Assembly: GCA_965237415.1 (NCBI GenBank)
Contig: CBDEFM010000002.1
Span: forward strand, 3,072,001-3,136,000
Direction: 5' to 3'
Length of the DNA stretch: 64,000 bases
Origin: Alphaproteobacteria bacterium
GTDB taxonomy: Bacteria; Pseudomonadota; Alphaproteobacteria; UBA828
Below are positions 27,432-48,662 of this stretch, in pieces (position 1 is the stretch's first letter; each line of letters opens with the position of its first letter). A program made the translations under genes and the position numbers. The notes beneath the pieces were generated by a model, which did not search any database, had not been told where the DNA came from, and saw only the letters and a list, made by a program, of their open reading frames with translations.

Positions 27432-27465
27432 GGCTCGAGGCTCTCCTCAGTTTGAAGAGGCCTCG
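27337..27465 (-). repeat. 129-bp inverted repeat, copy 1 (leader, RBS and signal peptide)
   Basis: 125/129 identical to 31395-31523 in opposite orientation. Confidence 0.97.
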
Positions 27466-27721
27466 ATGGGAGGCCTCGCATTGTTGAACTCCAACTGCCA
27501 GCGTACATAACGACTCAGGCAATGTCCATAGCTTCGCACATCAACACAGTACCTCCAAGAAGTCCTTCCCAGAGATACCCCGAACCATAGCGGGCAGTCT
27601 CCGCATCCCGCCATGCCGGGAAACCATGGAACCCACCAAAGGCCGTCCAGGGTCTCCGCCCCGTGTCGCCGCAGCCTCCATGCACATCCTCACGGCATCC
27701 TCCTTGCCGTCCAGCGTGCCG

Positions 27722-27760
27722 TCAAGCAAGCACGCCACAAGCAAGCCGCCAATGCAAGCC
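27722..27760. repeat. Short CAAGC(AAGC) repeats, possible integrase arm-binding sites
   Basis: gtCAAGCAAGCacgccaCAAGCAAGCcgccaatgCAAGC, downstream of the integrases and near the att-like site. Confidence 0.4.
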
Positions 27761-28122
27761 CAAAAAATCAAGGCCCTCCGAAAATTTGCCGCAACGAAAT
27801 CCCTCGTACACCGCCGGTCGAAGCACGTCGCGCCGCATAACCCGGAGCCGGTTGCCCGGCGGGTCCATGTGCTCGTCCAATCCGGGTGTCCCCGCAAGAC
27901 CCTAAGGTGTCGATCGGCGCCGGAGGCGATCCACTGCATCGCGGGTGGTCGAGCACCCAGGCCCTGCCGCGCTGGATGGCGATGACCCGGTGCTCAGGAG
28001 CGATCCCGCCAAACCGACCGTCTCGACCGCACCCGCCGGCTACTGCTCCGGGCCGCTGGTGTCTCCTTAACATATAGCGCAGTGCTTGCCGCCCCATGAT
28101 GCGCCGCTCCACCGCCCGGCCC

Positions 28123-29382
28123 TCACAGCCCTCGGCCCGGAGAGACGGCATCGGACCCGATCGGCGCCGGGGCGGCATCCAGCCCGAAGTCCGCAGGCAG
28201 GATATCCTCTCCGATGCTGGCGGCGACACGGGCCGCCGACGCCTTGACCGAGTCCCGCGCCAGATGTGCATAGCGCGCCGTGGTCTGAACCTGGGCGTGC
28301 CCCAACAGTCTGGCAATCACCGGAAGGCTCTCACCGAGCGCCAGCGCACGGCTGGCGAAGCTATGTCGTAAGTCGTGAATGCGCACACCCTCAAGACCCG
28401 CTCGCGTCCGCACTCGGCACCAGTGCTTGAAGATGTCCGACAGCCGCGCGCCAGGCTTGCGGCCGGGGACGACCCAGGGATTGCCGGCAACGCGCGGCAG
28501 TGCCGCCAGAACCTCCGCCGCCGCCGGCGACAGGGAAACCACTCGAGGACCCGTCTTGCTGTCTGGCAACCGAAGCTCCTTCGCCTCCAGGTCCACGTCC
28601 TCCCAACGCAGGGTCAGGATCTCGTTGCGGCGGCACCCCGTCAGCATCAGCAGACGCAGCGCCGCCACCGCGTGCACCGGCACCCGCCTCTCCGCCTCCA
28701 GCTCCCTCAGCACACGACCGAGGCGGCGGAACTCGGCGTCCGTCAGGAACCGCTCCCGCCGGCCCATCCGATACTTCCGCACATGCCGGCACGGGTTGCT
28801 CCCCGCCGGCGCCACTCCCCAGGCCGCCGCCTCCTCGATCAGCCGCGACAGGGTTGCCACTACCAGGTTCGCCGTAGACGGCCGGTCGCGCAGCCCGTAG
28901 TGCAGGTCGGCAACATGCGTCCGCCCGACCGCCGTGATCGGCAGCTCTCCCAGCACCGGCACGATGTGCTTGTCGACTGCCAACCGGTACTCGGCCACCG
29001 TCCCGGGCTTGCAGCGCACCGCCACATGCTCTCGCAGATAGCGCGCCGCGATGGCGGCCACCGTCGGCTCGCCCCCCGGCGTCGGCGCCATCGGCTCGGG
29101 GACAGGCTCCTCGCCCGCCTTGATGCGGGCGATAATCAGTGCCGCACGGCGGCGCGCCTCATCGGCGGCGATCACCCAGTGACGACCCAACGTCAGGCGT
29201 TTAGAACCATCCGGCCCTCTCGTTTGCACCACGTAATACTTGGACCCCGACGGATAGACCCGCACTCCGAAGCCGGGCAGCTCGGTGTCCCAGAACACCG
29301 TATCCTTCACCACCGACAGCGCCTCCACCGTGCGCTGCGTGATCGATCGTTCTTGCAGCCCCGCCATCCCGACCGGCCTCAT
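28123..29382 (-). CDS. Tyrosine integrase with arm-binding domain (second of tandem pair)
   Basis: WDTELPGFGVRV arm domain; TGCRRNE, SKTG, HDLRH, LLGH...TARYAH. Confidence 0.93.
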   Translation of the reverse strand: MRPVGMAGLQERSITQRTVEALSVVKDTVFWDTELPGFGVRVYPSGSKYYVVQTRGPDGSKRLTLGRHWVIAADEARRRAALIIARIKAGEEPVPEPMAPTPGGEPTVAAIAARYLREHVAVRCKPGTVAEYRLAVDKHIVPVLGELPITAVGRTHVADLHYGLRDRPSTANLVVATLSRLIEEAAAWGVAPAGSNPCRHVRKYRMGRRERFLTDAEFRRLGRVLRELEAERRVPVHAVAALRLLMLTGCRRNEILTLRWEDVDLEAKELRLPDSKTGPRVVSLSPAAAEVLAALPRVAGNPWVVPGRKPGARLSDIFKHWCRVRTRAGLEGVRIHDLRHSFASRALALGESLPVIARLLGHAQVQTTARYAHLARDSVKASAARVAASIGEDILPADFGLDAAPAPIGSDAVSPGRGL

Positions 29383-30560
29383 GCCGTGCCCGTCGCCGCC
29401 ATGATGTCAGCGCCGATGCTGGCGCCGACCCTGGCCGCCGAAGCCTTCTCCGTATCCCGCGCCAGATGGGCGTAGCGCGCCGTGCTCTCCAGGCCCGCAT
29501 GGCCAAGCAGCCCGCCGATCATGCTCAGGCTCTCGCCCAGCGCCAGCGCCCGGCTGGCGTAGCTGTGCCGCAAGTCGTGGATGCGCATATCTTCCAGCCC
29601 GACCAGCGCCCGAAGCCGATACCAATCCCGGGTCAGGCTCGTCAGACGGACCCCTGGCTCCTTGCCCACGATCACCCAGGGATTGCCCGGAACGCGGACG
29701 ATTCCCGCCAGCACCCTCTCCGCCGTCGGCGTCAGCGCCACCATGCGCGCCCCGGTCTTGCCGGCGCGCAGGCGGAACTCCCCCGCCGTCCGGTCCACAT
29801 CGTCCCAACGCAGGGTCAGTATCTCGGTGAGCCGGCACCCGGTCAGCATCAGCAAACGGAGCGCCGCCACCGCGCAGGGCGAGACCGAGCCCGTCGCTTC
29901 CGCCTCGGTAAGCGCCCGGCCCAGGCGGCGATACTCTTCCACCGTCAGGAAGCGTCCGCGCTTGCGCTCCTTGTATTTGCGCACCGAGCGGCAGGGGTTG
30001 CCCCCCTCCGGCGCCAAGCCCCAGACCCCGGCCAGGGAGAACATCTTGGTCAGAATCATGAGCACCCGGTTGGCGGCGCGGGGGGTGTCGCGAAGTCCGT
30101 AATGCAGCACCGACACATGCCCGCCGTCAACCGCGCCTATCGGCATCGCGCCGAGGGCCGGCAGGATGTGGTTCTCGAGTGAGCCACGATAGATGCCGGC
30201 GGTGTGGGCGTTGCAGTTCAGTGCCACATGGCCGCTCATGTAGCGCTCGGCGAGATCGGCGACAGTTATCTCAGGCGGGGGCGGCGGGTTCATGGGGTCC
30301 TCGCCGCTCTTGATGCGGTCGATAACGGTGGCCGCAGTCTCGCGGGCCTGGTCGGGGGTCATCTCGCCATGGCGGCCGAGGGTGACACGCTTGGGCGCGC
30401 CCCGCGCTCTGCATTGGACGACGTAGACCTTTCGTCCCGAAGGGTAGATCCGCACGCCGAAGCCGGGGAGGTCACGATCCCAGAAGACAGTGTCCCTGGT
30501 CTCGGCGGAAAGCGCGTCGACAGTGGGCCCGCAGATGGAGAGGTCGGTTCGTTTGGGCAT
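29379..30560 (-). CDS. Tyrosine integrase with arm-binding domain (first of tandem pair)
   Basis: WDRDLPGFGVRI; TGCRLTE, GKTG, HDLRH, LLGH...TARYAH; ATGA overlap. Confidence 0.93.
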   Translation of the reverse strand: MPKRTDLSICGPTVDALSAETRDTVFWDRDLPGFGVRIYPSGRKVYVVQCRARGAPKRVTLGRHGEMTPDQARETAATVIDRIKSGEDPMNPPPPPEITVADLAERYMSGHVALNCNAHTAGIYRGSLENHILPALGAMPIGAVDGGHVSVLHYGLRDTPRAANRVLMILTKMFSLAGVWGLAPEGGNPCRSVRKYKERKRGRFLTVEEYRRLGRALTEAEATGSVSPCAVAALRLLMLTGCRLTEILTLRWDDVDRTAGEFRLRAGKTGARMVALTPTAERVLAGIVRVPGNPWVIVGKEPGVRLTSLTRDWYRLRALVGLEDMRIHDLRHSYASRALALGESLSMIGGLLGHAGLESTARYAHLARDTEKASAARVGASIGADIMAATGTA

Positions 30561-31394
30561 GACGTGCTGGCCTCGGCATTGTGGCGATGCGGATCGGATT
30601 GCGCGCATGGCTCGGGAGCGCGGCGCCGGTCTCGGAACCGTTCTCCCAGTCTTCGACGGTCTCGAACAAATCGGTTAGTGCCTCAAGGGCAACACGGAAA
30701 ATGCTAATTCGAAGAAAATGTATGTCCTAGCGGCATAGGGTCGAGGGCGCGCGGTCCATGGGGAATCCGAGCCGGCCGCCCGCAACCGGGCGCGAAAAGG
30801 CGCCGCCGGAATGGCCGACGGCGCCTGTTATCCAGTTGCACCTTGTGGTCGTAACTGAAAGAGATCGCCCCGAAAAGATCGTCTTGCGCACCGTGTTGGG
30901 CGGCACTTTCACCCTCCGAACAGTCTCCTTGAGCGGAAGATCTATGTAAGCAATGCCGACAGATCCGCGCGATCGTTTCCGCAACCGATATCTCCCCCGC
31001 ACCTCATCCGGCCAGATAACGAGGTGAGTTCAGGTTCACAGAGTCGGTTGTGAATCGGCGCGCGGATTCGACGCCGATCAGCGCACTAAAGTTAATTTCT
31101 CATAAGTTACAGGGGTCGAGATTGCATGCCGAACCACAGCTGGTGAGGTTGGCACGCCTGGGCATGGAGGCGTCGCGGCTGGTCGGATCCTCCAGACGGT
31201 TCACTGAGCAGTACCGTCATCATTATGCAAGCGACCGTCATCATATTCGAGCGCGTTCAAGGTTGTGATAGTTGGGTATTCGATATCCGGGCTGCTGGCG
31301 AGGGGGGTGAAAATGCGCAGCAAATACCCATAGTTATCGTATTCCGGCGCACGCCTGTCTGGAGTTGGCGCAATAGCGCTACACGTCGGTTGGG

Positions 31395-31523
31395 CGAGGC
31401 CTCTTCAAACTGAGGAGAGCCTCGAGCCATGAAGAAGACGAAGCTGACTCGCAGTTTGCTGGCGGCGTGCTCGATCGTCGCCCTCTCGGCCGTCATGTAC
31501 GGCTGCGTCCACGATGGAGACGA
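31395..31523 (+). repeat. 129-bp inverted repeat, copy 2
   Basis: See 27337-27465. Confidence 0.97.
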
Positions 31524-33246
31524 TCCGGCGCCGGCGACTGACATGGGCATGGAAATGCCGACGACTCCTGAGGCTCTTGCTTGCGACGCGGGGGCGTCCC
31601 AGGCATGTGTGGACGCCCGCCAGGCGGAGCTTGACGCCATCGAGGCCGATGACGATGCCACCGTGGGCGAGCTCAATGCGGCCGAACTGGCCCTTACCGA
31701 TGCGCAGACCGCGCTTGCCGACGCCAACACGGCGGCGGCGGAAGAGATGACGGTCTCGGGTCTTATCGACGACGCCATGACGGCCATTGCCGACATCGAC
31801 GATGAGTCCACACCCGCGGCGGTCGCCACGGGCCGGGCTGCCATCGATGCGGCGCAAGACTCGCTGGACGGGATGGAGAACCTGTCCGCCGACGCTACGG
31901 CGGCCCTCCAGGGCCGGATCGACGCCCTCGAGAGCAGCTTCGCGCCGAATGAAATGGCGGTGGCGATCTCGGCCGCGACCGCGGCGGCGGGCACGAAGTC
32001 GACGGCCGTCGGTGCCGAGGCCGATCAGACGGGAGACGCAGGGCTCGGAGGCAGCGACGCTCCACAGACCGGCACTGCCGGGGCCTACAGCATGACCATC
32101 GAGAACGATGGCACCGGCGCGACGGTCAAGATCGAGTTGGAAGATGCTGCGGACGACGATCCGAAGTTCGTCGATCAGGAGGCGGGCCTGGATGGTGGAC
32201 GCTCCATGCACGTTCGCGCGATGGAAGCGGATGAAGACGGCAACGTGGTGGAAGAAGTCGTCATCGTCAGCACCGACATCGAGGGGCCCAAGGCCACGGC
32301 GTTCGCGATGGTCCATGATCTTAACGCCAACCCTGAAACCACAGGCGGCGGCGACTTCCAATCTCTCGACATCGCCGCTGGTAATTTGGCGATGATGATG
32401 ACGGATGGCATTACTTCGACAGGATCAGGTGAGATCACTCTCCTGGCAGCGGTCGAGGACAACGACGAAACCGATGAGGATGAGACTGTTGCGGCTTTTG
32501 AAACCGCAGCCACCTTCGACGGCGCGCCGGGCACATTGAAGTGCGGCGGCGCCACCGACTGCAGAGCCACGCTCGACGCGATGGGCATGATCACCGCAGT
32601 GGCCGGTGGCTGGATCTTCACTCCCGATGCGGACGTCAGGGTCGACGTGGATGACGCGGACTACCTCCGCTACGGCTTCTGGCTGCAGCGGACGACGGAC
32701 GCAGACGGCGCGGTCACCTACGACGAGGTCGAGACCTTCGCCGGTTCGTCGATTGAGGCAAGCGGCAGTGTTGCTCAGATTAGAGGCAGCGCAACCTATA
32801 AAGGCGGCGCGGTCGGCGTGTACGTGAGGGAAGTGTACAAGGCGGAAGATGGTAGTGTCGACACGGCCACCTCCGGTCACTTCGCGGCGAAGGCCAACCT
32901 GACGGCGACATTCAACCAGACGGTGAATGACCCTGATACGACCATCGACGAAGCAGATTCCATCGCGCCACGACTGCTGAACACCCTCAGCGGAACCATC
33001 AACAACTTCGTCCTGCAACATGGCGAGGCGAACGACTGGGCGGTGGACTTGCAAGGTGACATCGATACCAGCGTTGGCACCGCGAACGGCACGGCCAATG
33101 GTGGCGGCGCGGAAGGCTCGTACAGCGCCACGTTCCATGGTCCGACGACGGACGATGCCCAGCCGCACACCGTTGTCGGCGAGTTCAACGCCAACTTCGG
33201 TAACGGCACCGCGGCCGGCGGCTTCGGCGCGCGGAAGCAGGACTAG
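31429..33246 (+). CDS. Slam-dependent acidic surface lipoprotein with helical N-domain and TbpB-like barrel, 605 aa
   Basis: RBS GAGGAG; lipobox MYGC; GSATYKGGAVG...NLTATF...LSGTINNF...GEFNANF...GGFGA. Confidence 0.88.
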   Translation: MKKTKLTRSLLAACSIVALSAVMYGCVHDGDDPAPATDMGMEMPTTPEALACDAGASQACVDARQAELDAIEADDDATVGELNAAELALTDAQTALADANTAAAEEMTVSGLIDDAMTAIADIDDESTPAAVATGRAAIDAAQDSLDGMENLSADATAALQGRIDALESSFAPNEMAVAISAATAAAGTKSTAVGAEADQTGDAGLGGSDAPQTGTAGAYSMTIENDGTGATVKIELEDAADDDPKFVDQEAGLDGGRSMHVRAMEADEDGNVVEEVVIVSTDIEGPKATAFAMVHDLNANPETTGGGDFQSLDIAAGNLAMMMTDGITSTGSGEITLLAAVEDNDETDEDETVAAFETAATFDGAPGTLKCGGATDCRATLDAMGMITAVAGGWIFTPDADVRVDVDDADYLRYGFWLQRTTDADGAVTYDEVETFAGSSIEASGSVAQIRGSATYKGGAVGVYVREVYKAEDGSVDTATSGHFAAKANLTATFNQTVNDPDTTIDEADSIAPRLLNTLSGTINNFVLQHGEANDWAVDLQGDIDTSVGTANGTANGGGAEGSYSATFHGPTTDDAQPHTVVGEFNANFGNGTAAGGFGARKQD

Positions 33247-33303
33247 AACAGCAGGTCCGGGTCTCTTCGATGAGACCCTGACCTTTTGGGTCAAACTTGC
33301 GGG

Positions 33304-33334
33304 AGAGGGTGGCAGGTTCTGCCACCCTCTTTTT
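33304..33334 (+). terminator. Intrinsic terminator between lipoprotein and Slam
   Basis: AGAGGGTGGCAG-GTT-CTGCCACCCTCT-TTTT. Confidence 0.8.
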
Positions 33335-33360
33335 CTGTCCCCCGACCATCCTTCAGAGTC

Positions 33361-34794
33361 ATGGTTTCGACACTCATCCCTCTCCGCCGCGCGCCGGCGG
33401 CCACGGCCGGCCTGTTCCTCGGCTCTCTTGCAATCGCCGTCTGTCTCGTGCTCGCCGCGCCGGCCTGGGGCGCCGGTGACGAGGGGAAGGCGCCGCCCTC
33501 TCCCGAGACTTCTGCCGTCGAGGCCGAGGCGGAGGCGCGGGCGCTGATGGCGGCCGGCCGCTTCGCCGAGGCGCTCGCCATCCTGCGGCCGCCTGTGGAA
33601 GCCGGGGCGGTGCCGGCCATCCTGGTCTTCCTCTATGGCCTTGCGGCGTCGGAGACATCGCAGCAGCCGGGCCTTGACGATGACGCGCGCGAGGCGCTGC
33701 TGAACGAGGCCATCGGCGCCTTCCACGCCATGCTGGTCGAGGCGCCGGGGCTGGTGCGGGTGCGGCTGGAGCTGGCACGCGCGTTCTTCTTCAAGGGCGA
33801 GGACGATCTGGCGCGGCGCCACTTCGAGGCGGTGCTGGCCGGCGGCGTGCCGGAGGCGGTGGCCGCCAACGTCCAGGACTTCCTCGCCGCGATGCGGGCT
33901 CGCAATCGCTGGAGCTTCAATGTCGGAGCGGCGCTGGCGCCGGACAGCAACATCGGTGCCGGCTCCGAGGAGCGCACCATCTATATCCATTTCTTTGGCC
34001 AGGACTTTCCGTTCGAGCGGACCGCGGAGGAGCTTACGACCTCCGGCATCGGTGTCTCGGTCTGGGGTGGGGCCGAGTATCAGGTGCCGCTGGCGGAGCG
34101 CTGGCGGCTCCGCGCAGGCGGCGAGGCGGCGCGGCGGGAGTACGGGGGCTCCGAGTTCGATCAGCTCTTCGTCGCCACCCATCTCGGCCCGCGCTGGCTG
34201 GTGGACCGCGACACGGCGGCGAGCCTGCTGGCAAGCGCCCGCCAGCGCTGGACCGGCACTGTGCCGGACAATCGCGATCTCGGCGCCCGCCTGGAGCTGG
34301 GGCACCGGGTGAGCCCGCGGGTGACGGTGTCGGGGCAGGCCTCCTGGCACGACCGGCGCTACCGGACGCGGAGCCATCTGGACGGGCCGATCATGGATGC
34401 GTCGCTCAGGGGCTCCTGGGTGGTGACGCCGACGGTGCGGGCGAACTTGTCGGCGGGTTATGGGCAGGAGCGCCCCGAGAGCGAGCCCTATCGCAACCGC
34501 AGTCGCTGGCTGGGTGCGGGTGTTACCGTGATCCTGCCGCTGGGGTTTACGGTGGGCGGCGGCGGCGAGGTGCGCTGGACCGACTTCGACGACGAATGGT
34601 TCCGGCACACGCCGCCCGGCGAAGACAGGGCGGACCGCACGCGCAGCCTGCGGCTCTCGGTCCACAACCGTGCCTTCACCGTCTACGGCTTCAGTCCCGA
34701 ACTTGTGGTGGTGAACGAGGAGCGTGAGACCAACGCCCAGCTCTACGACTACCAGCGCACGCGCGGCGAGCTGCGTTTCGTGCGGCAGTTCTAG
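33361..34794 (+). CDS. Slam (TPR + DUF560 barrel), paralogue of 23917-25362
   Basis: Same motifs; the C-terminal barrel is highly similar to the first Slam. Confidence 0.88.
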   Translation: MVSTLIPLRRAPAATAGLFLGSLAIAVCLVLAAPAWGAGDEGKAPPSPETSAVEAEAEARALMAAGRFAEALAILRPPVEAGAVPAILVFLYGLAASETSQQPGLDDDAREALLNEAIGAFHAMLVEAPGLVRVRLELARAFFFKGEDDLARRHFEAVLAGGVPEAVAANVQDFLAAMRARNRWSFNVGAALAPDSNIGAGSEERTIYIHFFGQDFPFERTAEELTTSGIGVSVWGGAEYQVPLAERWRLRAGGEAARREYGGSEFDQLFVATHLGPRWLVDRDTAASLLASARQRWTGTVPDNRDLGARLELGHRVSPRVTVSGQASWHDRRYRTRSHLDGPIMDASLRGSWVVTPTVRANLSAGYGQERPESEPYRNRSRWLGAGVTVILPLGFTVGGGGEVRWTDFDDEWFRHTPPGEDRADRTRSLRLSVHNRAFTVYGFSPELVVVNEERETNAQLYDYQRTRGELRFVRQF

Positions 34795-39332: not shown

Positions 39333-39352
39333 AACCGTGACCCCCTCATACG

Positions 39353-39367
39353 GAACATATTGAGAAC
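39353..39367 (-). promoter_or_regulatory. Alphaproteobacterial LexA box upstream of the IS1595 transposase
   Basis: GAAC-ATATTGA-GAAC (GTTC-N7-GTTC on the minus strand); conserved in copy 2 at 40152-40166. Confidence 0.65.
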
Positions 39368-39427
39368 ATACAGCCTCACATGCGGAGTGTCACGGATAAG
39401 CAGGTTCCGAAATGACGGAAAACCTAA

Positions 39428-41118: not shown

Positions 41119-42027
41119 TCACGGGGCGACGCGATGAACGGGGATGCCGAGCTTGGTCGCCTTGTCGACGAGGTTGCCGGTGATGCCGGAGCCGGGGAAC
41201 GCGATCACACCCTTGGGCAAGAGGTCGAGCAGCTCGTCGTTGCGGCGGAAGGGGGCTGCCTTGCCGTGGGCGTTCCAGTTCGGACGGCACACGAGTTGAT
41301 GGACGCCTCGGGCTTCGGCCCACCTTGCCGCCACCGTCTCGACGCCGGGACCGCCGCCGTGGAGCAAGACCATGTCCGCATGCTTGGCACGCGTGCGGTC
41401 GAGCGTGGTCCAGACGATGTCGGCGTCGGCGACCTGCTTGCCGCCGGTGACGGCGACCAGGGTGCCCTCCGGTATGTGCGCGCGGGCCTCTCTGTCCTTG
41501 CGGGCGCGGCGGAAGTCGCGAGCGTCGATGGCGGCGGAGGTGAGGTTGCCGGTCTGGCTCACGTGCGACCCGTGGCGGGGTCGCCAGGTGTCGCCGGTCT
41601 CGACACGGTAGGCGTCGGCGGCGAGGTCGCGCATGGTCTCGAAGGCGTCGCGGCGGTTGCCGAGGTTGGCCTCGGCATCGCTGCCGCCGTAGAGCCGGCC
41701 CTCGGCCTTGGCCCTCGCGTAGCTGGCGCGGTCGGCCGCGCGCCGCTGCTCGAGGCATTGCCGGCACCTGGAGCGGTCCGGTGCCGGGGGATGCTTGCCG
41801 CACTTCGGGCACAACCCCCGCGCAAGGCGGTCTGCGGTCTGCCGCCGATAGCGCCGGCGCTGCCAGGCGCGCGCGTCCTCAACCTTCTTGTAGGCTATTG
41901 CAGGGATCCTCCCCGGCGAGAGTGCGGTCGAGCGAATGGGCGGTCCGGCGGGAGCACCGGCGCGACGGCGCCCCCGCCGGGCGTCGGTCAGCGATGCCGG
42001 CCGTTCGCGAACAGGCCGCAACTCCAC
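41119..42027 (-). pseudogene. Chimeric ORF: Zn-finger fragment fused to a DUF2493/SLOG-like C-terminal part
   Basis: GLCPKCGK...RCRQCLE joined to VAVTGG...LLHGG...AAPFRRND...IAFPGSGIT. Confidence 0.65.
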
Positions 42028-42305
42028 TCACCCCAGTACTGGATGCCGCCGTCGACGCTGATGCCGGTGGCAATGATGATCTCGTTTCGCTTCGGCCGCA
42101 GACGGCGAACCGACCGGCGGGACATCGTGGTGCGCGGCTTGCGCCCGCCGTTCGCCCGCCCCTCGTCGAGGGGTCTGATCTGGCCGTCCGCCGTGCTCTG
42201 GAAGCGCTCGACCACGAAGCGCTCATCGGCCTCGAGGCCGCCCCCGAAGATATGCGTCAGATACGTGGCGGCATGTCGATTGTGTGTCCTCGCCGTCGTC
42301 GGCAT
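41988..42305 (-). CDS. Hypothetical protein
   Basis: Plausible composition; same strand as the plasmid-type DUF2493 gene. Confidence 0.35.
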   Translation of the reverse strand: MPTTARTHNRHAATYLTHIFGGGLEADERFVVERFQSTADGQIRPLDEGRANGGRKPRTTMSRRSVRRLRPKRNEIIIATGISVDGGIQYWGEWSCGLFANGRHR

Positions 42306-42487
42306 GGTCCGTCCTCCCGGTCCGTGTGTGCGAACGGCGCGCGCGCCCTCTCGCCCGAGGACCCGCCCGCCGCCCGCGTCACGGCCGCCCTCTTCCTCTC
42401 GGCGGCGTGCGGGCGCGGGGGCGGCGAGGGCCGGCAGACGCCGGCGGCGGGATGCCGGAACGGCGAGCCATGGATATGATGGGAGCG

Positions 42488-43345
42488 ATGTCCAGCCGGA
42501 GACCCGCGGATCGTGCGGTTGCGGACCGCCAGCCCGATCTGTTCGACGAACGTGGCCTGATCGAGGCCGGCCGAGTCGCGGCCCCGGTCGCGCCGGACGC
42601 CGGTCCGGCAGCCGCCGGTCTCACGGACGGCGCGCTGATCGCGACACTGCCGCAGGCGACCGCGTCGAACGTGGAAGCGCTATGCGCCGAGGTGGTGAGC
42701 CGGTCTCTTGAGGCGGCGGCGCCTGCGCTCGAAGAGCTGTGGCGCCGCTTCGCCGGGTACGGCATCGGGGCGCCCTTGGTGGAGCAGCGAGCGGTTTTGG
42801 GCGCGCTGGCGCAACTTGAGTGCGGGGCCGCGCAGACGACGCTGAAGGGGATCGTCCTGTGCGCGGTCTTGCCGGCCTCGCTGCTCCCGTGCGCGCTTCG
42901 GGCGACGGCGGATGCCGGGCTCGCGCTGCCGGCTACGTTCGTCGCCCCGCTGCTGGGCCACGAGGATGTCGCGGTGCGCGAGCCGGCGTTTGCGCTGGCC
43001 CTGAAGGCCGGTGTTCGCAGCGACCTGCTTCGGGACCGGCTTGGCGATGCGTCGGCGTCGGTCCGGCGGTCGGCGGCGCTCGCCATGGGCAAGCGGGGCG
43101 ACGCGGGGGCGCGGGAAGCGCTGATCGGCGAGCTCGGGCGGAACCCGTCGAGCGAGGTGATCGAGGCGCTCGCCCTGGTTGCGGATGACGATGTCGTGGT
43201 TCACCTGGGCCGGTGCGCGGCGCGTCATCCCGCGCTTGCCGGCACCGTGCTCGGCATCCTGCGCGACATGGAGTGCGTGAGGGCGGAGCGGCTTGCCGGG
43301 CGCCTGGAAGCGGGACGCCGGATCTCGGGGAGCGGCGGCGATTGA
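42488..43345 (+). CDS. HEAT/PBS-lyase repeat protein
   Basis: LLGHEDVAVREPA, LGDASASVRRSAALAMG repeats. Confidence 0.7.
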   Translation: MSSRRPADRAVADRQPDLFDERGLIEAGRVAAPVAPDAGPAAAGLTDGALIATLPQATASNVEALCAEVVSRSLEAAAPALEELWRRFAGYGIGAPLVEQRAVLGALAQLECGAAQTTLKGIVLCAVLPASLLPCALRATADAGLALPATFVAPLLGHEDVAVREPAFALALKAGVRSDLLRDRLGDASASVRRSAALAMGKRGDAGAREALIGELGRNPSSEVIEALALVADDDVVVHLGRCAARHPALAGTVLGILRDMECVRAERLAGRLEAGRRISGSGGD

Positions 43346-43382
43346 GGCTCATGGACGCCCGCAGACGGCCCGCTGTGACGGC

Positions 43383-43661
43383 CTAGCCTTGTCGGCAGGG
43401 TGGCGATGCTGCAAGGCGGCGACAAGCGCCTGCGGCCTGGCGTCCCGCGCGGCGCCGGTCGGCCAGGCGGGACACTGGGCGACTGCTCTTGGTAATGACG
43501 ATCTCTTCGCCGCTGTTCGCCACCTCGTCCATCAGCTTCAGGCACGTTGCCTTGAACTCGGAAGCCTTCACGATCCTGGCACCGCAAGCGCCGATGCCGT
43601 TGTCGGTCTTCACCACGCGCCATCCGCTATCCGATGATGGTCGCCAAATTGCCATAGTCAT
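43383..43661 (-). pseudogene. Phd/YefM antitoxin, orphan/degenerate
   Basis: VKASEFKATCLKLMDEVANSGEEIVITKSSRPVSRL; no cognate toxin downstream. Confidence 0.7.
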
Positions 43662-43844
43662 GCCTTGGTCAAAATCCGTATCTCTACGACCTCCTGAGGC
43701 GGACGACGCCCCACCACGGCCTTGCGGAGGCGCGCCTGAATCGGCGCCGCACTGGCCCCGTCGCAACCTTCCCGCACGCCGTGAACACCGGCAGGTTTCA
43801 TTGCCCGGGCGCAATCGTGCGAAGGCCAAGAAATCGGCAAGAGA

Positions 43845-44222
43845 TCACGAAGATAGTTCAGAGAGCGTCATCTCTGCGTCTGCCGTCACTTCGAGCACGC
43901 GATTGACCATGACATCCATCGGATCGCGACGTTCGGATAAATATGCGATCGCGGCGCGCAGCAGCGCCTCCGAACGTGCTCGCCCAGCGGAGGGCAGGAT
44001 TATGAGGCCGGGATGAACGTCCCGCGCGGACACGAGCCCGCGAAAATCGCGGGCGTTCTCCGTGACAAGAACAGGATCCTGCTCGACGCACCGAGCCAAG
44101 ACGTCGCGATCCGGCGCACCCAGCCCGCCGAAGTCTCGTGGGTGCACGGCGAGATGCGTGCCTTCGGCATTCAGCGTTTGCGAGATTGCTGGAGAGATGC
44201 ACTCATCGAGAAACAACCGCAC
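43845..44222 (-). CDS. DUF5615 PIN-like toxin (VapC45-like)
   Basis: RLFLDECIS...D..VL...VLVTENARDF...HPGLIIL. Confidence 0.85.
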   Translation of the reverse strand: MRLFLDECISPAISQTLNAEGTHLAVHPRDFGGLGAPDRDVLARCVEQDPVLVTENARDFRGLVSARDVHPGLIILPSAGRARSEALLRAAIAYLSERRDPMDVMVNRVLEVTADAEMTLSELSS

Positions 44223-44242
44223 CGACTTGTCTAGGTCGCTAT

Positions 44243-44833
44243 TCAGGCCGCGCTTCGCCAAGGCCTGCCGGATGGGCGTCCTCGAAGAGGGTGGGCCTTG
44301 GCGTATAGTACGGCGGCTTCGAACGCCTCACGCGGTATCTCCGGATAGTCGTGCGCAAGATCCTCGATAGCATCGCCGTCGCTCAGCCGACCCAGCACCG
44401 AGTAAACCGACACGCGCGTGCCGACAATGACCGGCGTGCCGCCGAGGATATCGGCATCGGATACGATGTACAGGTCACGGGCGTCCCGGTACCGCTCGGC
44501 GTCGCGCAACGGCTCGGCCGCAAGGCGAGGCAGGTCGAGCATCGCGCCGGGGGTGAATTCGATGGGCTCGAGCCGCCAGGGCTCAAGCCCCGCCAGACGC
44601 GCCCATATCTCCCGCTCGTGGCGCAACGCGAGGTCCGTCAAATCCGCCGCCTTCAAAGAGTGAAAATAGGCCACCGCGCGGATCGGCAGATAGCGCGTCG
44701 CTCCGCCGCGAAAGCGGGCAGGACCTGCGACAGACCGAAGAACGCCGGCTTCGAGGGCTTTTTCGATAGTCGAGCGCGGCACGCCCGCAAGCGCAGCGGC
44801 TTCTCGTATTGTCAGGTCGGCCGTGATCGGCAT
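44243..44833 (-). CDS. HTH + DUF433 antitoxin (VapB45-like)
   Basis: IVSDADILGGTPVIVGTRVSV...DYPEI. Confidence 0.88.
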   Translation of the reverse strand: MPITADLTIREAAALAGVPRSTIEKALEAGVLRSVAGPARFRGGATRYLPIRAVAYFHSLKAADLTDLALRHEREIWARLAGLEPWRLEPIEFTPGAMLDLPRLAAEPLRDAERYRDARDLYIVSDADILGGTPVIVGTRVSVYSVLGRLSDGDAIEDLAHDYPEIPREAFEAAVLYAKAHPLRGRPSGRPWRSAA

Positions 44834-45059
44834 TATTCTTTCCTCATCGGGCACGAATATATGGCTGAGCCTTGCGCGTGGCAAGGCTCCTGGGAGCAGG
44901 TTTTCAACGAGCGAACCGCCGAAGAAGGGCGCGACCAGGAAACGTCGGCCGGGGCGGATCGGGGTGTGTCGACGGACGTCCCGTCGGGGACCACGGTCGT
45001 CCTTGGGCTGGCGGCATGTCCGGAATCACGACTGAGGTGAGCCGCGGATGGCAACGTCT

Positions 45060-45350
45060 GCGTCTCAGCGTCGGTTGAGCGCAGAGCAGGTACAGGTCTT
45101 TGTTGAGCGCCACGATGAGGCCCGCGGCTCCCATCATCATTGCACCCAGACGAATGGTCATGCGCCGCTCCGGATCCTGCATCTGGCCCCGCAGCGCCGC
45201 CTCGGTCTTCTCAAGGTCGACCTTGGTGACGAAGGTCTCGGTCGTGCCCTCGACAATGGTGTCGACCAGGACCCCAAATGGGTTCCCGTCGAAGCCGCCC
45301 TTCGTCGTGTTGCTGCCGCGACGCCCTGAGCGTGTCGAACGCCGCCGTCG
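45060..45350 (-). pseudogene. DUF1640/CCDC90-like protein, frameshifted copy
   Basis: AFDTLRAS / TKVDLEKTEAALRGQM...RRMTIRLGAMM; homologous to 47852-48244. Confidence 0.7.
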
Positions 45351-45542
45351 CCGTTACTGTTATCGCGACCGGCTCTCCCGAAGCCGGCCCCGCCGGTCGC
45401 GAGCGCGCCTGGCGAAGACTGTCATCGGCCCCGATTCGGCACGGCGCCCGGATCGAAAATCGCCTCCGGGCGCGGACGGTTTGATTCCGGCAGCGCGGGC
45501 GCTGTCGGCTTCCCGGTGTAGCGTTTGCGCGAATCGGGCGGA

Positions 45543-45692
45543 CAGGGGTACGCTGGAGTTCGAATTCACTCGCTTCCGCAGTGATTACGGCGGGCAATTC
45601 AGGGGGCTGCGGAAAGGGGAAGATTCGGAGGCTAAGTCACTGAAAGCAGCGAGAGAACGGAGAGTGTAGGAAATTTTCTACCCCCAGGCTCT
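45543..45692 (+). repeat. 150-bp direct repeat copy 1 (att-arm-like, ends in AGGCTCT)
   Basis: 146/150 identical to 48480-48629; weaker homology extends about 450 bp further left. Confidence 0.95.
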
Positions 45693-45761
45693 GCCTCTCC
45701 GTGGCGCACAGGCACGGGGGCGGCGCGGGCCGGCAGTCGGTGCGGCAGCGAGACCGGGACC

Positions 45762-46311: not shown

Positions 46312-46635
46312 CTATACCGCGTCAGAAAGCGCTGTTCTCGAGGCGAGATCGGCCCTCGTCGGCAGAAGCCGGATCGTATCGCCCGTCTCCTTGTCGGCAC
46401 AGACGAGATCGAAGTGTGCTTGCAGGTTGAGCCAGAACTCCGGCTCGACACCGAACCAGTGACCGAGGCGGAGCGCCGTGTCGCCAGTGATCGAACGCCT
46501 GCAGTGGATGATCTGGCTCACACGGTTCGCCGGCACATCGATCTGGCGCGCGAACTCCGTCGGAGTGACGCCGATTTCCGCCAACTCTTCCTTCAGTATC
46601 CGACCGGGATGGACGGCACGTCTCAGCACAGGCAC
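46312..46635 (-). CDS. higA: HigA antitoxin
   Basis: VHPGRILKEEL...SITGDTALRL...FWLNLQ. Confidence 0.9.
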   Translation of the reverse strand: MPVLRRAVHPGRILKEELAEIGVTPTEFARQIDVPANRVSQIIHCRRSITGDTALRLGHWFGVEPEFWLNLQAHFDLVCADKETGDTIRLLPTRADLASRTALSDAV

Positions 46636-46642
46636 TCCCCCT

Positions 46643-46940
46643 TCACGAATGGTAGTCCACAATCTCGATGTTGCCAGGCCCCGATTGACCCTCCGGCCAC
46701 TCGAAACAGATACGCCATTGCCTGTTGATCCGAATGGAATACTGTCCTTTCCGATCTCCTCCGATCTCCTCCGAGGGCCTCCAGCCGATTGCTCGGCAGG
46801 TTCCGCAGCGTGTCGAGGGACGGCGCGGCGTTCAGGATGGTAAGGCGTCTGGCCGCTTGCTGCTCAAAGCCCTGGAAATCCCGGACCATTCGGCCGCTGG
46901 CGAATCTCTCGGTTTTGCTGTCCCTGTAGCTGAGGATCAT
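46643..46940 (-). pseudogene. higB: HigB toxin frameshifted by a 10-bp tandem duplication
   Basis: CCGATCTCCT x2 at 46751-46770; removing one copy restores EALGGDRKGQYSIRINRQWRICFEW...EIVDYH*. Confidence 0.9.
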
Positions 46941-47276
46941 CAAGGGACAAGGTAGCCCGTTGACGATGTACGTCAAGCGTAGACATCGGGCGACGGTCCG
47001 GGTTCGAGATCGCTGCTGCTTTCGCCGAAAACTGCTCGGACAGCGCCGCTGCCGGTTGCAGCCATCGTCGCGGCCGTCGCGGTCGCACCGATCGCGAGCC
47101 GACCGGCGGCGGCGGACGCACCCGATCAGAACCGCCCCGGCAGCACCTCAGAGGCTCGACCGGCTCAGCCGCGCGCACCGTGCTTTCGGAAAGCAGGTTT
47201 TGATTCCGGTTGCGGGGCCGCCGCCCATGCGCCCCGCAGATGGACTTGCCTGCACCAAATATGGTACACCAGCGCG

Positions 47277-47639
47277 GTGACATCACCCGACAAAGTCGCC
47301 GTTGCCCGGTTCTTCCGCTTGGCGAGCGGTCGCGAGCCTGCGCGCGAATGGCTCCGGGAGCTGACGGGGGAGGATCGAAAGACCATCGGTCGGGACCTGA
47401 TGAAGATCGAGTTCGGGTGGCCGTGCGGTCCTCCCCTGTGCAGGCCGCTCACCGGTCACCCCGGTCTGTACGAGGTGCGCAGCAGGCTGACGGATGGGAG
47501 GAACGCCAGGTTGTTCTTCACCGTATCGGCAGGGATCATGGTGCTCCTGCATGGCTTCATCAAGAAGAGCCGGGCGACGCCCGAGAGGGAGCTGAAGCTG
47601 GCGGAGCGGCGAAGGAGGGACTATGAGCGAAACGGGTAA
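47277..47639 (+). CDS. RelE/ParE-superfamily (Gp49-like) toxin
   Basis: GREPAREWL...GWPCGPP...LYEVRS...VLLHGFIKKSRATP. Confidence 0.88.
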   Translation: MTSPDKVAVARFFRLASGREPAREWLRELTGEDRKTIGRDLMKIEFGWPCGPPLCRPLTGHPGLYEVRSRLTDGRNARLFFTVSAGIMVLLHGFIKKSRATPERELKLAERRRRDYERNG

Positions 47640-47925
47640 GGGCAGCGCTCGCATCGGGACGACGCTCGAAAGCCTGCTGCGCGAGGACGGCAGCTACGAG
47701 GAGGCGAAGAACCAGGCGGTCAAGTCGGTTCTCGCCTACAAGCTGGAGCAGGCGATGAAAGCGCAGAAGCTGTCGAAGGCAGGCATGGCCGCCCGTATGG
47801 AGACCAGCCGCTCGCAGCTGGACCGTCTGCTCGATCCCGATAACGACGGCGTCACGCTGCACACGCTGAAACGTGCTGCGGCGGCCGTCGGCATGCGTCT
47901 GGAAATCGAACTTCGTCACGTCTAG
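47623..47925 (+). CDS. XRE-type HTH antitoxin
   Basis: IGTTLESLLRE...MAARMETSRSQLDRLLDP...VTLHTL. Confidence 0.85.
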   Translation: MSETGKGSARIGTTLESLLREDGSYEEAKNQAVKSVLAYKLEQAMKAQKLSKAGMAARMETSRSQLDRLLDPDNDGVTLHTLKRAAAAVGMRLEIELRHV

Positions 47926-48244
47926 CCGGCGGTAACCGTTCCTGCGCGGTCGAGTGGAATTGGGAACCGCTGGGGCGAAGCGCAGCAAGGCCTGACCGAC
48001 GCCGCTGGCCAACGACAACGGTGCCCACCAGCGTCGCACCCAGGCAAATGGTCATGCGCTGCTCCAGCTCACGCATCTGGCCTCGCAGCGACGCCTCGGT
48101 CTTCTCAAGGTCGACCTTGGTCGCCAGGGTCTCGCCCGTGCGCTCGGAAAAGGTCTCGACCAAGATCGCGGCCTGCTTCTCGTCGAAGCCGCCTTCGGCG
48201 CGCGGCCGCCGCGCGGCCCTGAGCGTGTCGAACGCCAGCGTCAT
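47852..48244 (-). CDS. DUF1640/CCDC90-like protein (3' end degenerate)
   Basis: MTLAFDTLRAARR...GGFDEKQA...LATKVDL...LEQRMTICLG. Confidence 0.7.
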   Translation of the reverse strand: MTLAFDTLRAARRPRAEGGFDEKQAAILVETFSERTGETLATKVDLEKTEASLRGQMRELEQRMTICLGATLVGTVVVGQRRRSGLAALRPSGSQFHSTAQERLPPARRDEVRFPDACRRPPQHVSACAA

Positions 48245-48479
48245 GCGCTCATCCCGTCGCCGCAGCCGGCGGCGGCGACCATGTGCACCGCCGTCGCCAC
48301 CGTGCCTCCGGCATTCCCGAACTCGGCCATGTCGGTCCTGAGCGCGCGCGGCAAGGACCGTCATCGGCCCGATCAGGCCGGGCGGCGGGATCGAAAACCG
48401 CCTCTCGGCGGGGTGGTTTGATTCCAGCGGCGCGGGCGCCGTCGGCGGGTATGTGTAGGGTTCGCGCGACTCGGGTACG

Positions 48480-48662
48480 CAGGGGTACGCTGGAGTTGGA
48501 ATTCACTCGCTTCCGCAGTGATTACGGCGGGCAATTCAGGGGGCTGAGGAAAGGGGCGGATTCGGAGGCTAAGTCACTGAAAGCAGCGAGAGAACGGAGA
48601 GTGTAGGAAATTTTCTACCCCCAGGCTCTCCTCATTCTGAAGAGGCCTCGTCGGGAGGCCTC
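48480..48662 (+). repeat. 150-bp repeat copy 2 fused at AGGCTCT to a 40-bp copy of the lipoprotein leader
   Basis: 48480-48629 matches 45543-45692; 48623-48662 matches 27438-27477 (36/40). Confidence 0.93.

What the first reader, a model, noticed from the sequence alone, without database searches (positions are those of the whole stretch)
27438..48662. Self-nesting mobilisable element that appears to integrate at the RBS of surface-lipoprotein genes
Seen: the leader AGGCTCTCCTCAGTTTGAAGAGGCCTCGATGGGAGGCCTC (27438-27477) recurs in direct orientation at 48623-48662 (36/40). There it is joined at the 7-mer AGGCTCT to an unrelated 150-bp arm instead of a lipoprotein ATG, and it sits about 250 bp upstream of a second, paralogous integrase pair. 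Deleting 27445-48629 in silico gives lipoprotein-657 <- leader - int1' -> int2', the same architecture as the module inside the element (int2 <- int1 <- leader -> lipoprotein-605). The interval carries integrases, a MobF relaxase, an oriT-like site and TA modules. Known: a 7-bp overlap and restoration of the target are typical of tyrosine integrases. Inference: an integrative mobilisable element inserted into a relative of itself at the lipoprotein leader, and its cargo carries a fresh copy of the target, so surface-protein modules can stack and swap promoters.
Basis: partly seen in the sequence, partly recalled or inferred. Interest (0 to 1): 0.85.

Follow-up and report, generated by a model that had tools for sequence, protein, structure and literature searches.

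The report
Integrase elements targeting surface-lipoprotein gene leaders
A 21-kb mobilisable DNA element carrying two integrases, a relaxase and its own surface-lipoprotein operon appears to have inserted between the ribosome-binding site and start codon of another surface-lipoprotein gene; the same short site joins such modules in many related genomes, so these surface-protein operons are stacked and re-partnered by site-specific recombination.

Summary
The 40-mer at 27438-27477 recurs at 48623-48662 (36/40), with a third, inverted copy at 31383-31422; the genome has no others. The lipoproteins are Slam-linked surface lipoproteins (SLPs).

Homology breaks at AGGCTCT repeatedly. A second copy of the arm (45125-45692) ends on the same 7-mer. 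In about 58 further sites from related Defluviicoccus-like MAGs and metagenome contigs, the leader is joined there to two SLP start families or to the arm. On its other side it meets at least six flank types.

Tandem P4-type integrase pairs are bracketed by inverted copies of the site. Arm|R2 and SLP|R4-integrase junctions, the expected parents of the two window junctions, exist in other genomes. One naive SLP|leader site has no integrase nearby.

Best reading (0.6): a 21.2-kb integrative mobilisable element inserted into the internal SLP|integrase junction of a decayed relative.

No excision junction could be tested because only assembled contigs were available. No oriT or promoter was found. 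Inversion between inverted sites is equally possible.

This is a new variant of known integrative elements.

The parts
22166..23806 (-). 546-aa lipoprotein, last gene of the outer operon; TbpB-like C-terminal barrel, weak match
   Evidence: PF01298 E=1.5e-4, 22.7 bits, below the 26-bit cut-off. NF041636 Slam-dependent surface lipoprotein, 33.9 bits, below the 80-bit cut-off; lipobox LGAC.
23917..25413 (-). Slam (surface lipoprotein assembly modifier), 498 aa
   Evidence: PF04575 SlipAM E=7.9e-23, above the cut-off.
25458..27431 (-). SLP-657, a surface lipoprotein whose 5' end carries the target site
   Evidence: N-terminus MKKTKLTRSMLAACSIVALSAVMYGC. C-terminal 28% identity to the TbpB-like protein. 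No Pfam family.
27438..27477 (+). Site L1 (attL-like): core AGGCTCT, then the complement of the Shine-Dalgarno sequence, a spacer and a GAGGCCTC hairpin
27478..28122 (.). R2 flank (the integrase pair's distal end): about 350 nt of conserved, apparently non-coding DNA. 'orf132' is probably not a gene. An 11-nt repeat at about 27762 varies in copy number.
   Evidence: alignment of 14 R2 flanks with indels that are not multiples of three; orf132 is frameshifted in G043. table 4: 11-nt insertion at 27762. GC3 0.71.
28123..29382 (-). intB, 419-aa P4-type tyrosine integrase, intact
   Evidence: Arm-DNA-bind_3, SAM-like and Phage_integrase domains; motifs GCR, HDLRH, GH, RYAHL present.
29379..30608 (-). 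intA, 409-aa P4-type tyrosine integrase, intact
   Evidence: (alignment to XerD over the catalytic region).
30609..31382 (.). R_in flank between intA and site L2; carries the motif GCTTRCNNARTGATKACGG (31214-31232), which is also in both arms
   Evidence: 3 matches in the window against 0.04 expected..
31383..31422 (-). Site L2: the element's internal SLP|integrase junction, a fresh copy of the target
   Evidence: I5, I16.
31429..34794 (+). Cargo operon: SLP-605 (31429-33246) and Slam, 502 aa (33286-34794)
   Evidence: PF04575 E=1.4e-23. I1: the two Slam genes are 82% identical over 1168 nt.
35172..38282 (+). TrwC-type (MOBF) relaxase-helicase, 1036 aa
   Evidence: PF08751 E=2.5e-82; AAA_30 E=5.3e-52.
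38379..40203 (-). IS1595-family transposase gene plus a partial second copy
   Evidence: PF12762, PF12760. (D1, D5, D7)..
41119..44884 (.). Cargo: SLOG/YspA-related protein (41119-42027, -), HEAT-repeat ORF (42284-43345, +), DUF433/HTH protein (44243-44884, -)
45125..45692 (+). Arm copy 1 with a fragment of the coiled-coil gene; ends on AGGCTCT (45686-45692), then unrelated sequence
   Evidence: D3, D4, D11.; the sequence to its right has no homologue in the loci held.
46312..47925 (.). Two toxin-antitoxin pairs: HigA (46312-46662, -) with a HigB-like ORF (46623-46976, -); Gp49/DUF891 toxin (47277-47639, +) with an HTH antitoxin (47623-47925, +)
   Evidence: TIGR02607 HigA E=1.3e-25. PF05973, PF13744. 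The HigB-like ORF has no family hit.
47852..48622 (-). 170-aa ORF of no known family, and arm copy 2 (about 48365-48622): the element's P-arm-like end, with GTACGCTGGAGT and TGATTACGG motifs and a terminator-like hairpin
   Evidence: No family.
48623..48662 (+). Site L3 (attR-like): arm|AGGCTCT|leader
48663..51830 (+). Remnant of the resident relative: R4 flank; intA' split by an IS5-family insertion (transposase 49232-50227, -) and resuming at about 50249-51334; intB' truncated after about 138 codons (51415-51830)

Best explanation
Bases 27445-48629 (21.2 kb) are an integrative mobilisable element, here called E1. It consists of a cassette of two intact P4-type tyrosine integrases (intA, intB) and a cargo segment. 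The cargo runs from its own SLP-Slam operon through a TrwC relaxase, SLOG and DUF433 genes and two toxin-antitoxin pairs to a non-coding arm. In circular form E1 would carry two copies of one core site in inverted orientation: site a (arm|core|R2, next to intB) and site b (SLP-605|core|R_in, next to intA). Shown by sequence: the core AGGCTCTCCT lies between the Shine-Dalgarno sequence and the ATG of SLP genes. Inferred: site a recombined with the b-type junction of a resident relative (SLP-657|core|R4-intA'-intB'). That gave L1 (SLP-657|core|R2) and L3 (arm|core|R4). The crossover fell in the 12 nt shared exactly by L1 and L3, and each flank kept its own spacer and hairpin loop. The incoming end supplies a Shine-Dalgarno sequence and about 130 nt of upstream sequence to SLP-657, much as islands that target tRNA genes restore the tRNA 3' end. 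Repeating this process builds arrays of SLP-Slam modules. Because sites alternate in orientation, the same enzymes could also invert cassettes or cargo segments. The relaxase would allow mobilisation by a helper conjugation system. The resident relative's integrases are now dead.
For: Direct repeat 36/40, with all mismatches right of AGGCTCTCCTCA. Arm copy 1 breaks at the same 7-mer. In the genus the arm and leader match contiguously through query position 283, and the leader alone recurs elsewhere. Of 43 distinct exact-pattern sites (40 in 39 genome loci plus 3 in the window), 18 join an SLP start, 14 a second SLP start family, 10 an arm and 1 something else. Fifteen metagenome loci repeat the same classes. 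The arm is joined to R1 or R2 in 14 of 15 arm sites and to an intA-proximal flank only at window L3 (with R1 reassigned by eye, 70). R1, R2 and R4 each occur with more than one left partner. Both parental types exist. Arm|R2-orf132-intB-intA is contiguous in G043, with integrases 86% and 88% identical to the window's, and the R2 flank aligns closely with the window's over the roughly 500 nt held. SLP|R4 or an R4-like flank followed by an integrase occurs at 5 distinct sites (L053, L055, L070, and L060 and L097, whose flanks are identical). G024 has SLP|leader plus about 60 nt of R2 and no integrase within 20 kb on either side. Both integrases keep the catalytic motifs. A relaxase is present. 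G043 holds an array in which integrase cassettes alternate with arm...Slam-SLP segments. Leader-negative genomes have Slam loci without the core and without integrases.
Against: No circular or empty-site junction of this element itself was seen. Only Logan contigs were available, and they stop about 30 nt into the repeats. No excisionase, oriT or coupling protein was identified. E1 carries IS1595 insertions. Two inversions (L1xL2 and L2xL3) would convert a G043-like order into the window's order equally well, so integration of a circle is not the only route. The arm junctions in different genomes are homologous to one another, so they are not independent events; only the re-assortment of flanks is. 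The spacer variant ATTT goes with the S2 left partner while TGCT goes with R2, so the crossover point is not fixed by the census. Flank classes were assigned by regular expressions and by eye. Some cassette ends carry only the hairpin, joined to ...ACGTTAA (T-type), which the model does not explain.
Confidence: 0.6

Rival explanations
1. The sites mainly serve programmed inversion, as in a shufflon or the Mycoplasma Vpma system. The 3.9-kb integrase cassette between the inverted sites L1 and L2, and the 17-kb segment between L2 and L3, would flip. That would re-pair alternative SLP-Slam operons with different upstream regions and vary which surface lipoprotein is made. On this view the window shows one state of a switch, not a fresh insertion.
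For: L1 and L2 are a 129-nt, 97% inverted repeat flanking both integrase genes (I5). Of 8 tandem integrase clusters tested in this genome, only this one has a long flanking inverted repeat; the only others found were 14-15-nt GC-rich matches at one cluster. Every cassette whose two ends were visible is bracketed by inverted hairpin sites: window C1, L045, L046, L051, L058, L077, G040, G041. One 2.9-kb contig is exactly S2|intA-intB|S2. The same cassette is attached to the SLP-657-type operon by opposite ends in the window and in G043. Sites in the G043 array alternate + and -. SLP genes share a highly conserved 5'UTR and signal peptide (26-38 aa at 82-96% identity) on otherwise divergent proteins, as Vpma genes do. 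L1 and L2 share the spacer AGTT, and both ends of the G043 orthologous cassette share a 4-nt shorter variant.
Against: Both orientations were never seen within one population (one search was uninformative). No promoter or single expression site was found. Integrases with arm-binding domains, long conserved arms and a linked relaxase are typical of integrating elements. Alternating site orientation also follows automatically from integrating circles that carry two inverted sites.
Confidence: 0.2
2. There is no current or specific recombination at the site. The leader would be a shared regulatory 5'UTR (hairpin plus Shine-Dalgarno) of a paralogous gene family. The arm junction would be a single ancient accident inherited by all elements, and the present order would result from homologous recombination, IS activity and decay in a region crowded with mobile elements.
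For: The whole window is full of mobile-element remains: serine recombinases, IS21, IS4/5, IS1595, RepB, PIN. The second half of the hairpin can pair with the Shine-Dalgarno region, by inspection, which suggests an RNA role. The hairpin loop varies in length (5, 7 or 12 nt), which fits an RNA or terminator hairpin. Arm junctions are homologous across genomes. The leader-to-SLP 5' homology of 129 nt could support RecA-dependent exchange.
Against: The arm and SLP contexts share only about 40 nt yet break at the same base. An orphan Shine-Dalgarno sequence in front of a non-coding arm is hard to explain as regulation. The same flank (R1, R2, R4) occurs with different left partners in different genomes. 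Sites are nearly always within 1 kb of an integrase gene end. A naive site shares only about 130 nt with the element ends. Arm copy 1 breaks at the core with no leader homology to its right.
Confidence: 0.15

Closest known systems
Integrative mobilisable elements and genomic islands with P4-type tyrosine integrases, including tandem accretion at one att site (for example CIME/ICE accretion in Streptococcus thermophilus; recalled, not read here)
   Same: An integrase at the element edge next to the att site. Direct att repeats (36/40). The element end carries a copy of the target's terminal sequence, so the target gene stays complete. A relaxase without a transfer apparatus. A newcomer uses the junction of a resident element, which builds arrays.
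   Different: The target is the Shine-Dalgarno-to-ATG spacer of a surface-lipoprotein operon, not a tRNA or the 3' end of a gene. There are two paralogous integrases in tandem. The element carries a second, inverted copy of the site in front of its own SLP operon, so it offers a new target and can also invert.
Tripartite ICEs of Mesorhizobium (PMC5882170; search listing and start of abstract only)
   Same: Several integrases and several att sites in one element, and multi-step recombination that re-arranges separated chromosomal regions before transfer.
   Different: Those use three different integrase/att systems at tRNA and other genes, each with its own directionality factor. Here one core sequence is reused at all junctions and no directionality factor was found.
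Mycoplasma agalactiae Vpma / Xer1 and related lipoprotein inversion systems (PMC2268961; search listing and start of abstract only; site details recalled)
   Same: Variable surface lipoprotein genes with a conserved 5'UTR and signal peptide, a recombination site in the 5'UTR, and a tyrosine recombinase encoded at the locus.
   Different: Those loci are small, chromosomal, inversion-only and use one Xer-like recombinase. Here there are P4-type integrases with arm-binding domains, 250-350-nt arms, a relaxase and 20-kb units, and no switching has been shown.
R64 shufflon (Rci) and Hin-type invertible segments (recalled)
   Same: Sites of alternating orientation separate segments, and the recombinase gene lies inside or beside the invertible DNA.
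   Different: The shufflon swaps 3' ends of one gene on a plasmid, and Hin is a serine recombinase. Neither moves whole operons or integrates.
RIT (recombinase-in-trio) elements (recalled)
   Same: Tandem tyrosine recombinase genes flanked by inverted repeats, in multiple copies per genome.
   Different: RIT elements have three recombinases of other subfamilies without the Arm-DNA-bind_3 domain, and no fixed link to a target gene.

Membership tests
Integrative mobilisable element (IME) | Encodes its own intact site-specific recombinase(s) | tested here: met
   intA (409 aa) and intB (419 aa) have Arm-DNA-bind_3, SAM-like and Phage_integrase domains. The R, HxxR, H and Y motifs are present. Full-length orthologues at 88% and 86% identity occur in G043.
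Integrative mobilisable element (IME) | Bounded by direct att repeats, one junction restoring the target | tested here: met
   L1 and L3 match 36/40 in direct orientation (D13). L1 keeps the Shine-Dalgarno sequence and about 130 nt of upstream sequence like that of the naive site in G024.
Integrative mobilisable element (IME) | Relaxase and a cognate oriT, without its own mating-pore genes | tested here: inconclusive
   A TrwC relaxase is present. No coupling protein or T4SS family appeared among the ORFs scanned. No inverted repeat was found in the 375-bp region upstream of trwC, so no oriT was identified.
Integrative mobilisable element (IME) | Excised circular form and empty site detectable | not testable with these tools
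   All 7 runs listed were served as Logan contigs, and the 4 laid break about 30 nt into the repeats. Only junctions of the same type in other genomes were found.
Invertible-segment / shufflon-type switch | Segment flanked by inverted recombination sites, with the recombinase at the locus | tested here: met
   129-nt, 97% inverted repeat around intA-intB. L2 and L3 are inverted around the cargo (I16).
Invertible-segment / shufflon-type switch | Both orientations present in one population | not testable with these tools
   One search used contigs only. Between genomes, the cassette is attached to the SLP-657-type operon by opposite ends.
Invertible-segment / shufflon-type switch | A fixed promoter or expression site that the inversion connects to alternative genes | tested here: inconclusive
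   Consensus scans found 1 sigma-70-like site in 27300-31500 (0.6 expected), pointing toward intA, and none in 47800-49000.
Slam-dependent surface lipoprotein system | Slam (DUF560/SlipAM) gene adjacent to the lipoprotein gene | tested here: met
   PF04575 E=7.9e-23 and 1.4e-23, immediately downstream of SLP-657 and SLP-605.
Slam-dependent surface lipoprotein system | Substrate has a lipoprotein signal peptide and a C-terminal TbpB-like beta-barrel | tested here: inconclusive
   Signal peptides end in MYGC or LGAC. The 546-aa protein matches PF01298 and NF041636 below their cut-offs. SLP-657 and SLP-605 have no family hit, but their C-termini are 28-31% identical to that protein. No structure was predicted.
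RIT element | Three tandem recombinases of the RitA/B/C subfamilies | tested here: not met
   There are two genes, both of P4 type with Arm-DNA-bind_3.

The most novel reading that the evidence does not exclude
The leader is the shared recombination site of a dual-purpose system. Tandem P4-type integrases would both integrate 20-kb mobilisable units and invert cassettes and segments between alternating sites. Arrays of Slam-SLP operons would then behave as a horizontally transferable shufflon, re-pairing surface-lipoprotein operons with expression-competent or silent upstream regions. That would be programmed surface variation in a free-living or symbiotic alphaproteobacterium, plausibly under phage or predator pressure.
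Probability: 0.2. Interest if true: 0.85.

Novelty: new variant of a known kind. Interest (0 to 1): 0.68.

Why it matters
Slam-dependent surface lipoproteins are known mainly from host-adapted pathogens, as iron-scavenging and immune-evasion proteins. The main texts of two surveys of the family (PMC5449769, PMC8406197) contain none of the words integrase, mobile, transposase or island; their supplementary tables were closed and might list gene neighbourhoods. In environmental Defluviicoccus-like bacteria, a whole subfamily of SLP-Slam operons is physically tied to integrase pairs through a site placed between the Shine-Dalgarno sequence and the start codon. Each recombination event therefore gives an SLP gene a new 5' region, and each incoming element brings both a new SLP-Slam operon and a new target. 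If the site is active, this is a simple mechanism for stacking, exchanging and spreading surface-protein modules. It would also be a compact two-integrase system with a roughly 30-bp core that can be tested in vitro.

Tried and rejected
Reads. The look-up of sequencing runs listed 7 runs, all kept as Logan contigs. Four were laid on 26901-46900. Contigs end at 27436 and at 31421-31424, which is k-1 bases into the inverted repeat, so they say nothing about alternative junctions. The joints listed there (33227>45949, 41712>45684 and others) have sides of 21-30 letters, and I do not interpret them. L3 lay outside the 20-kb limit.

Rfam. One sub-threshold miRNA match and nothing else in 20000-56000, so the arm and the R2 flank are not known RNAs.

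tRNA target. There are no tRNA genes in the window.

Promoters and terminators. Counts were at chance level.

oriT. No inverted repeat in 34780-35200.

Other tandem integrase clusters. Seven more clusters in this genome show no long flanking inverted repeat; one cluster gave only 14-15-nt GC-rich matches. The bracket is therefore specific to the SLP-linked cassette.

GTACGCTGGAGT as an arm-type site. There were 7 matches with up to 2 mismatches against 3.5 expected, and 7 of 100 shuffles did as well. This is not significant window-wide, although the two exact copies are in the two arms.

Sequence right of arm copy 1 (45693-46290). No homologue in any locus held.

Plasmids. The best integrase relatives are at most 46% identical, generic integrases on alphaproteobacterial replicons. 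Not followed.

Literature. No paper holds both 'surface lipoprotein assembly modulator' and 'integrase'. A search for five phrasings of tandem or paired tyrosine recombinases listed 15 of 30 papers, mostly on XerC/D and none on a comparable element. A Defluviicoccus/integrase search gave nothing relevant among its 10 listed papers.

RIT membership was rejected (two genes, P4 type).

I considered calling arm|R4 (L3) an intact attP. I rejected this because 14 of 15 arm sites pair with R1 or R2 and none of the others pairs with an intA-proximal flank.

Full report
OBSERVATION

The 40-mer at 27438-27477 recurs in direct orientation at 48623-48662, with 36 of 40 bases identical (D13). All four differences lie to the right of the shared AGGCTCTCCTCA.

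A third copy, inverted, lies at 31383-31422 in front of the 605-aa lipoprotein gene. It belongs to a 129-nt inverted repeat, 97% identical (27337-27465 / 31395-31523), which also covers the first 31 codons of the two lipoprotein genes (I5).

A 22-nt core pattern gives 3 matches in the window against 0 in 100 shuffles, and only these 3 in the 4.75-Mb genome. At 48623 the leader abuts non-coding DNA (the arm) instead of a start codon.

GENES

The lipoprotein genes are each followed by a Slam gene (PF04575, E about 1e-23). The outer operon ends with a 546-aa lipoprotein that matches the TbpB barrel and the 'Slam-dependent surface lipoprotein' models below their cut-offs. These are therefore two paralogous Slam-SLP operons:
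- SLP-657, Slam-498 and the 546-aa protein, on the minus strand
- SLP-605 and Slam-502, on the plus strand

Between them lie two intact P4-type tyrosine integrase genes, intB (28123-29382) and intA (29379-30608). Both have an arm-binding domain and complete catalytic motifs.

After Slam-502 come:
- a TrwC relaxase
- IS1595 copies
- a SLOG-family gene and a HEAT-repeat ORF
- a DUF433 gene
- HigA with a HigB-like ORF
- a Gp49-type toxin with an HTH antitoxin
- a 170-aa ORF of no known family
- the arm

To the right of 48662 the second integrase pair is dead. intA' is split by an IS5-family insertion and intB' is truncated. The rest of the window is also rich in mobile-element genes.

THE BOUNDARY AT AGGCTCT

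The arm is not unique. Positions 45125-45692 are a second copy, and the two copies lose homology exactly after AGGCTCT (D3).

A scan of 44 genomes of the family found matches in 14 of the 20 other genomes of the same genus. Among the 23 outside-genus genomes it found only one weak match, in one genus. Arm plus leader matched contiguously through the end of the hairpin in about ten places, and the leader alone matched in many more.

Record titles of 39 loci that hold the exact pattern name MAGs of Defluviicoccus sp., Rhodospirillales or Alphaproteobacteria. Two short contigs are labelled Chloroflexota and Acidobacteriota. Fifteen metagenome contigs hold the pattern too.

At these sites the leader is joined at AGGCTCT to one of the following:
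- the start of an SLP gene of the MKKTKLT family (S)
- the start of a second SLP family (S2)
- the arm (A)

Among 43 distinct sites, counting the window's three, 18 are S, 14 are S2, 10 are A and 1 is something else. Of the 15 metagenome loci, 6 are S, 2 are S2, 5 are A, 1 is another gene start and 1 is cut at the contig end.

On its other side the leader meets at least six flank classes:
- R_in types (R3, R4, R6, R8 and the window's L2 flank) lie 220-790 bp upstream of an intA start.
- R_out types (R1, R2) lie 350-650 bp downstream of an intB end.

A third junction type, T, shares only the hairpin. I cannot explain it.

ARCHITECTURE

Every integrase pair whose two ends could be seen is bracketed by inverted copies of the hairpin site: window, L045, L046, L051, L058, L077, G040, G041.

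Arm sites pair with R1 or R2 in 14 of 15 cases. The one exception is the window's L3 (with four R1 cases reassigned by eye, 70). S sites pair mostly with R_in flanks (about 13 of 18 and at least 5 of 6) and less often with R_out.

In one complete genome (G043), eleven sites alternate in orientation over about 130 kb. Integrase cassettes alternate with segments that run from an arm through SLOG, relaxase or toxin-antitoxin genes to a Slam-SLP operon.

The simplest unit is therefore a circle made of one cassette and one cargo segment, with two inverted sites: a (arm|R_out) and b (SLP|R_in).

THE WINDOW IN THIS FRAME

L2 is the b site of E1. L1 (SLP-657|R2) and L3 (arm|R4) are the rare recombinant classes. 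Their expected parents both exist elsewhere:
- In G043, arm|R2-orf132-intB-intA is contiguous. Its integrases are 86% and 88% identical to those of the window, and the R2 flank aligns closely with the window's over the roughly 500 nt held.
- SLP|R4 or an R4-like flank followed by an integrase occurs at L053, L055, L060, L070 and L097. L060 and L097 have identical flanks.

G024 has an SLP with the leader and about 60 nt of R2-like sequence, and no integrase within 20 kb on either side. It is a candidate naive target.

The 4 mismatches between L1 and L3 fit a crossover inside AGGCTCTCCTCA, with each flank keeping its own spacer and loop. L1 and L2, the two sites of E1, share the spacer AGTT, whereas L3 has ATTC. 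On the coding strand the core lies between the GAGGAG Shine-Dalgarno sequence and the ATG.

I therefore read 27445-48629 as a 21.2-kb integrative mobilisable element that recombined through its a site with the b junction of a resident, now decayed, relative.

WHAT REMAINS OPEN

The same order could arise from two inversions (L1xL2 and L2xL3) of a G043-like arrangement. In G043 the orthologous cassette is attached to the SLP-657-type operon by its other end. Integration and inversion cannot be separated with the data at hand.

All runs were served as contigs, and the contigs stop inside the repeats. No promoter, oriT or excisionase was found.

A 19-nt motif is shared by both arms and the L2 flank (3 matches against 0.04 expected). 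By eye, TTACGG-like repeats in R4 look like arm-type binding sites. That is inference.

Slam genes occur in 18 of 21 genus genomes. Leader-negative genomes have divergent Slam loci with neither the core nor integrases. The site thus marks one mobile SLP-Slam subfamily.

This genome has 44 integrase-like matches, many of them in tandem. Only the SLP-linked pair has the long inverted bracket.

COMPARISON AND VERDICT

The system works like P4-type integrative elements that accrete at a shared att site. It differs in three ways: the target is a 5'UTR, it uses a tandem integrase pair, and it has a second inverted site in front of its own cargo operon.

It resembles tripartite ICEs (PMC5882170; listing and start of abstract only) in its multi-site logic. 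It resembles Mycoplasma Vpma/Xer1 loci (PMC2268961; listing and start of abstract only) in placing the site in the conserved 5'UTR of variable lipoprotein genes.

The main texts of two surveys of Slam systems do not contain the words integrase, mobile, transposase or island.

I rate this a new variant of a known kind.

Noticed in passing
window 49076-50248 (transposase 49232-50227, -): The IS5-family insertion that splits intA' has a transposase 99% identical (aa 72-331) to a copy in another species' genome (G043). That suggests recent exchange of this IS between the lineages.
   Followed up: no
window about 27762, inside 'orf132' / the R2 flank: An 11-nt unit (AAAATCAGCC-like) varies in copy number. 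G043 has several extra copies. One metagenome contig has an 11-nt insertion and another a 1-nt deletion (table 4). The ORF is frameshifted in G043, so this is probably a non-coding repeat array in the integrase-distal arm.
   Followed up: partly
window 52704-54105: 39-nt inverted repeats (95%) flank a 1.4-kb unit that encodes a 327-aa tyrosine recombinase without an arm-binding domain (52778-53761). It is a small recombinase-only element inserted just beyond the truncated intB'.
   Followed up: no
window 55001-58500: GC content drops to about 0.55-0.57. A SIR2-like protein (55451-56737; PF13289) lies beside ORFs of no known family. This is possibly a defence island.
   Followed up: no
G000, whole genome: There are 44 matches to the P4-type integrase, many in tandem pairs, trios or a run of four (for example C1:695630-700633 and C2:3847352-3850927). 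Tandem integrases are a trait of this genome. A fourth hairpin copy at C2:3010254-3010279 lies beside an integrase fragment.
   Followed up: partly
window 38379-40203: One complete IS1595-family copy is followed by a partial second copy (repeats D1, D5, D7 at 95-96%). Metagenome contig depth is very high here (table 2), so the IS is abundant in the community.
   Followed up: no
window 48398-48411 (-): A terminator-like hairpin (CCGCCGAGAGGCGG followed by TTTTCG) lies at the inner end of the arm, read from the leader. If transcription enters from the leader, the arm could be a roughly 220-nt transcript. It has no Rfam match.
   Followed up: partly
loci L055 and L056: Two short contigs with the exact site, an SLP start and integrases are binned into MAGs labelled Chloroflexota and Acidobacteriota. 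This is probably mis-binning of mobile DNA rather than wide host range.
   Followed up: no
window 1-21400: Two large serine recombinases (7511-9280, 17703-18824), a RepB partition protein (5720-6616), IS21 istA/istB fragments, a PIN toxin and a truncated sigma-70 (16051-16575). The SLP-657 operon itself sits in mobile DNA, not in conserved chromosome.
   Followed up: no
G040, G041, G043, L058: T-type ends: the hairpin at the intB-distal end is joined to ...CTTTACGTTAA instead of the core. The outer flank is collinear in two genomes (92% over 6 kb) and unrelated in a third beyond about 45 nt. Unexplained.
   Followed up: partly
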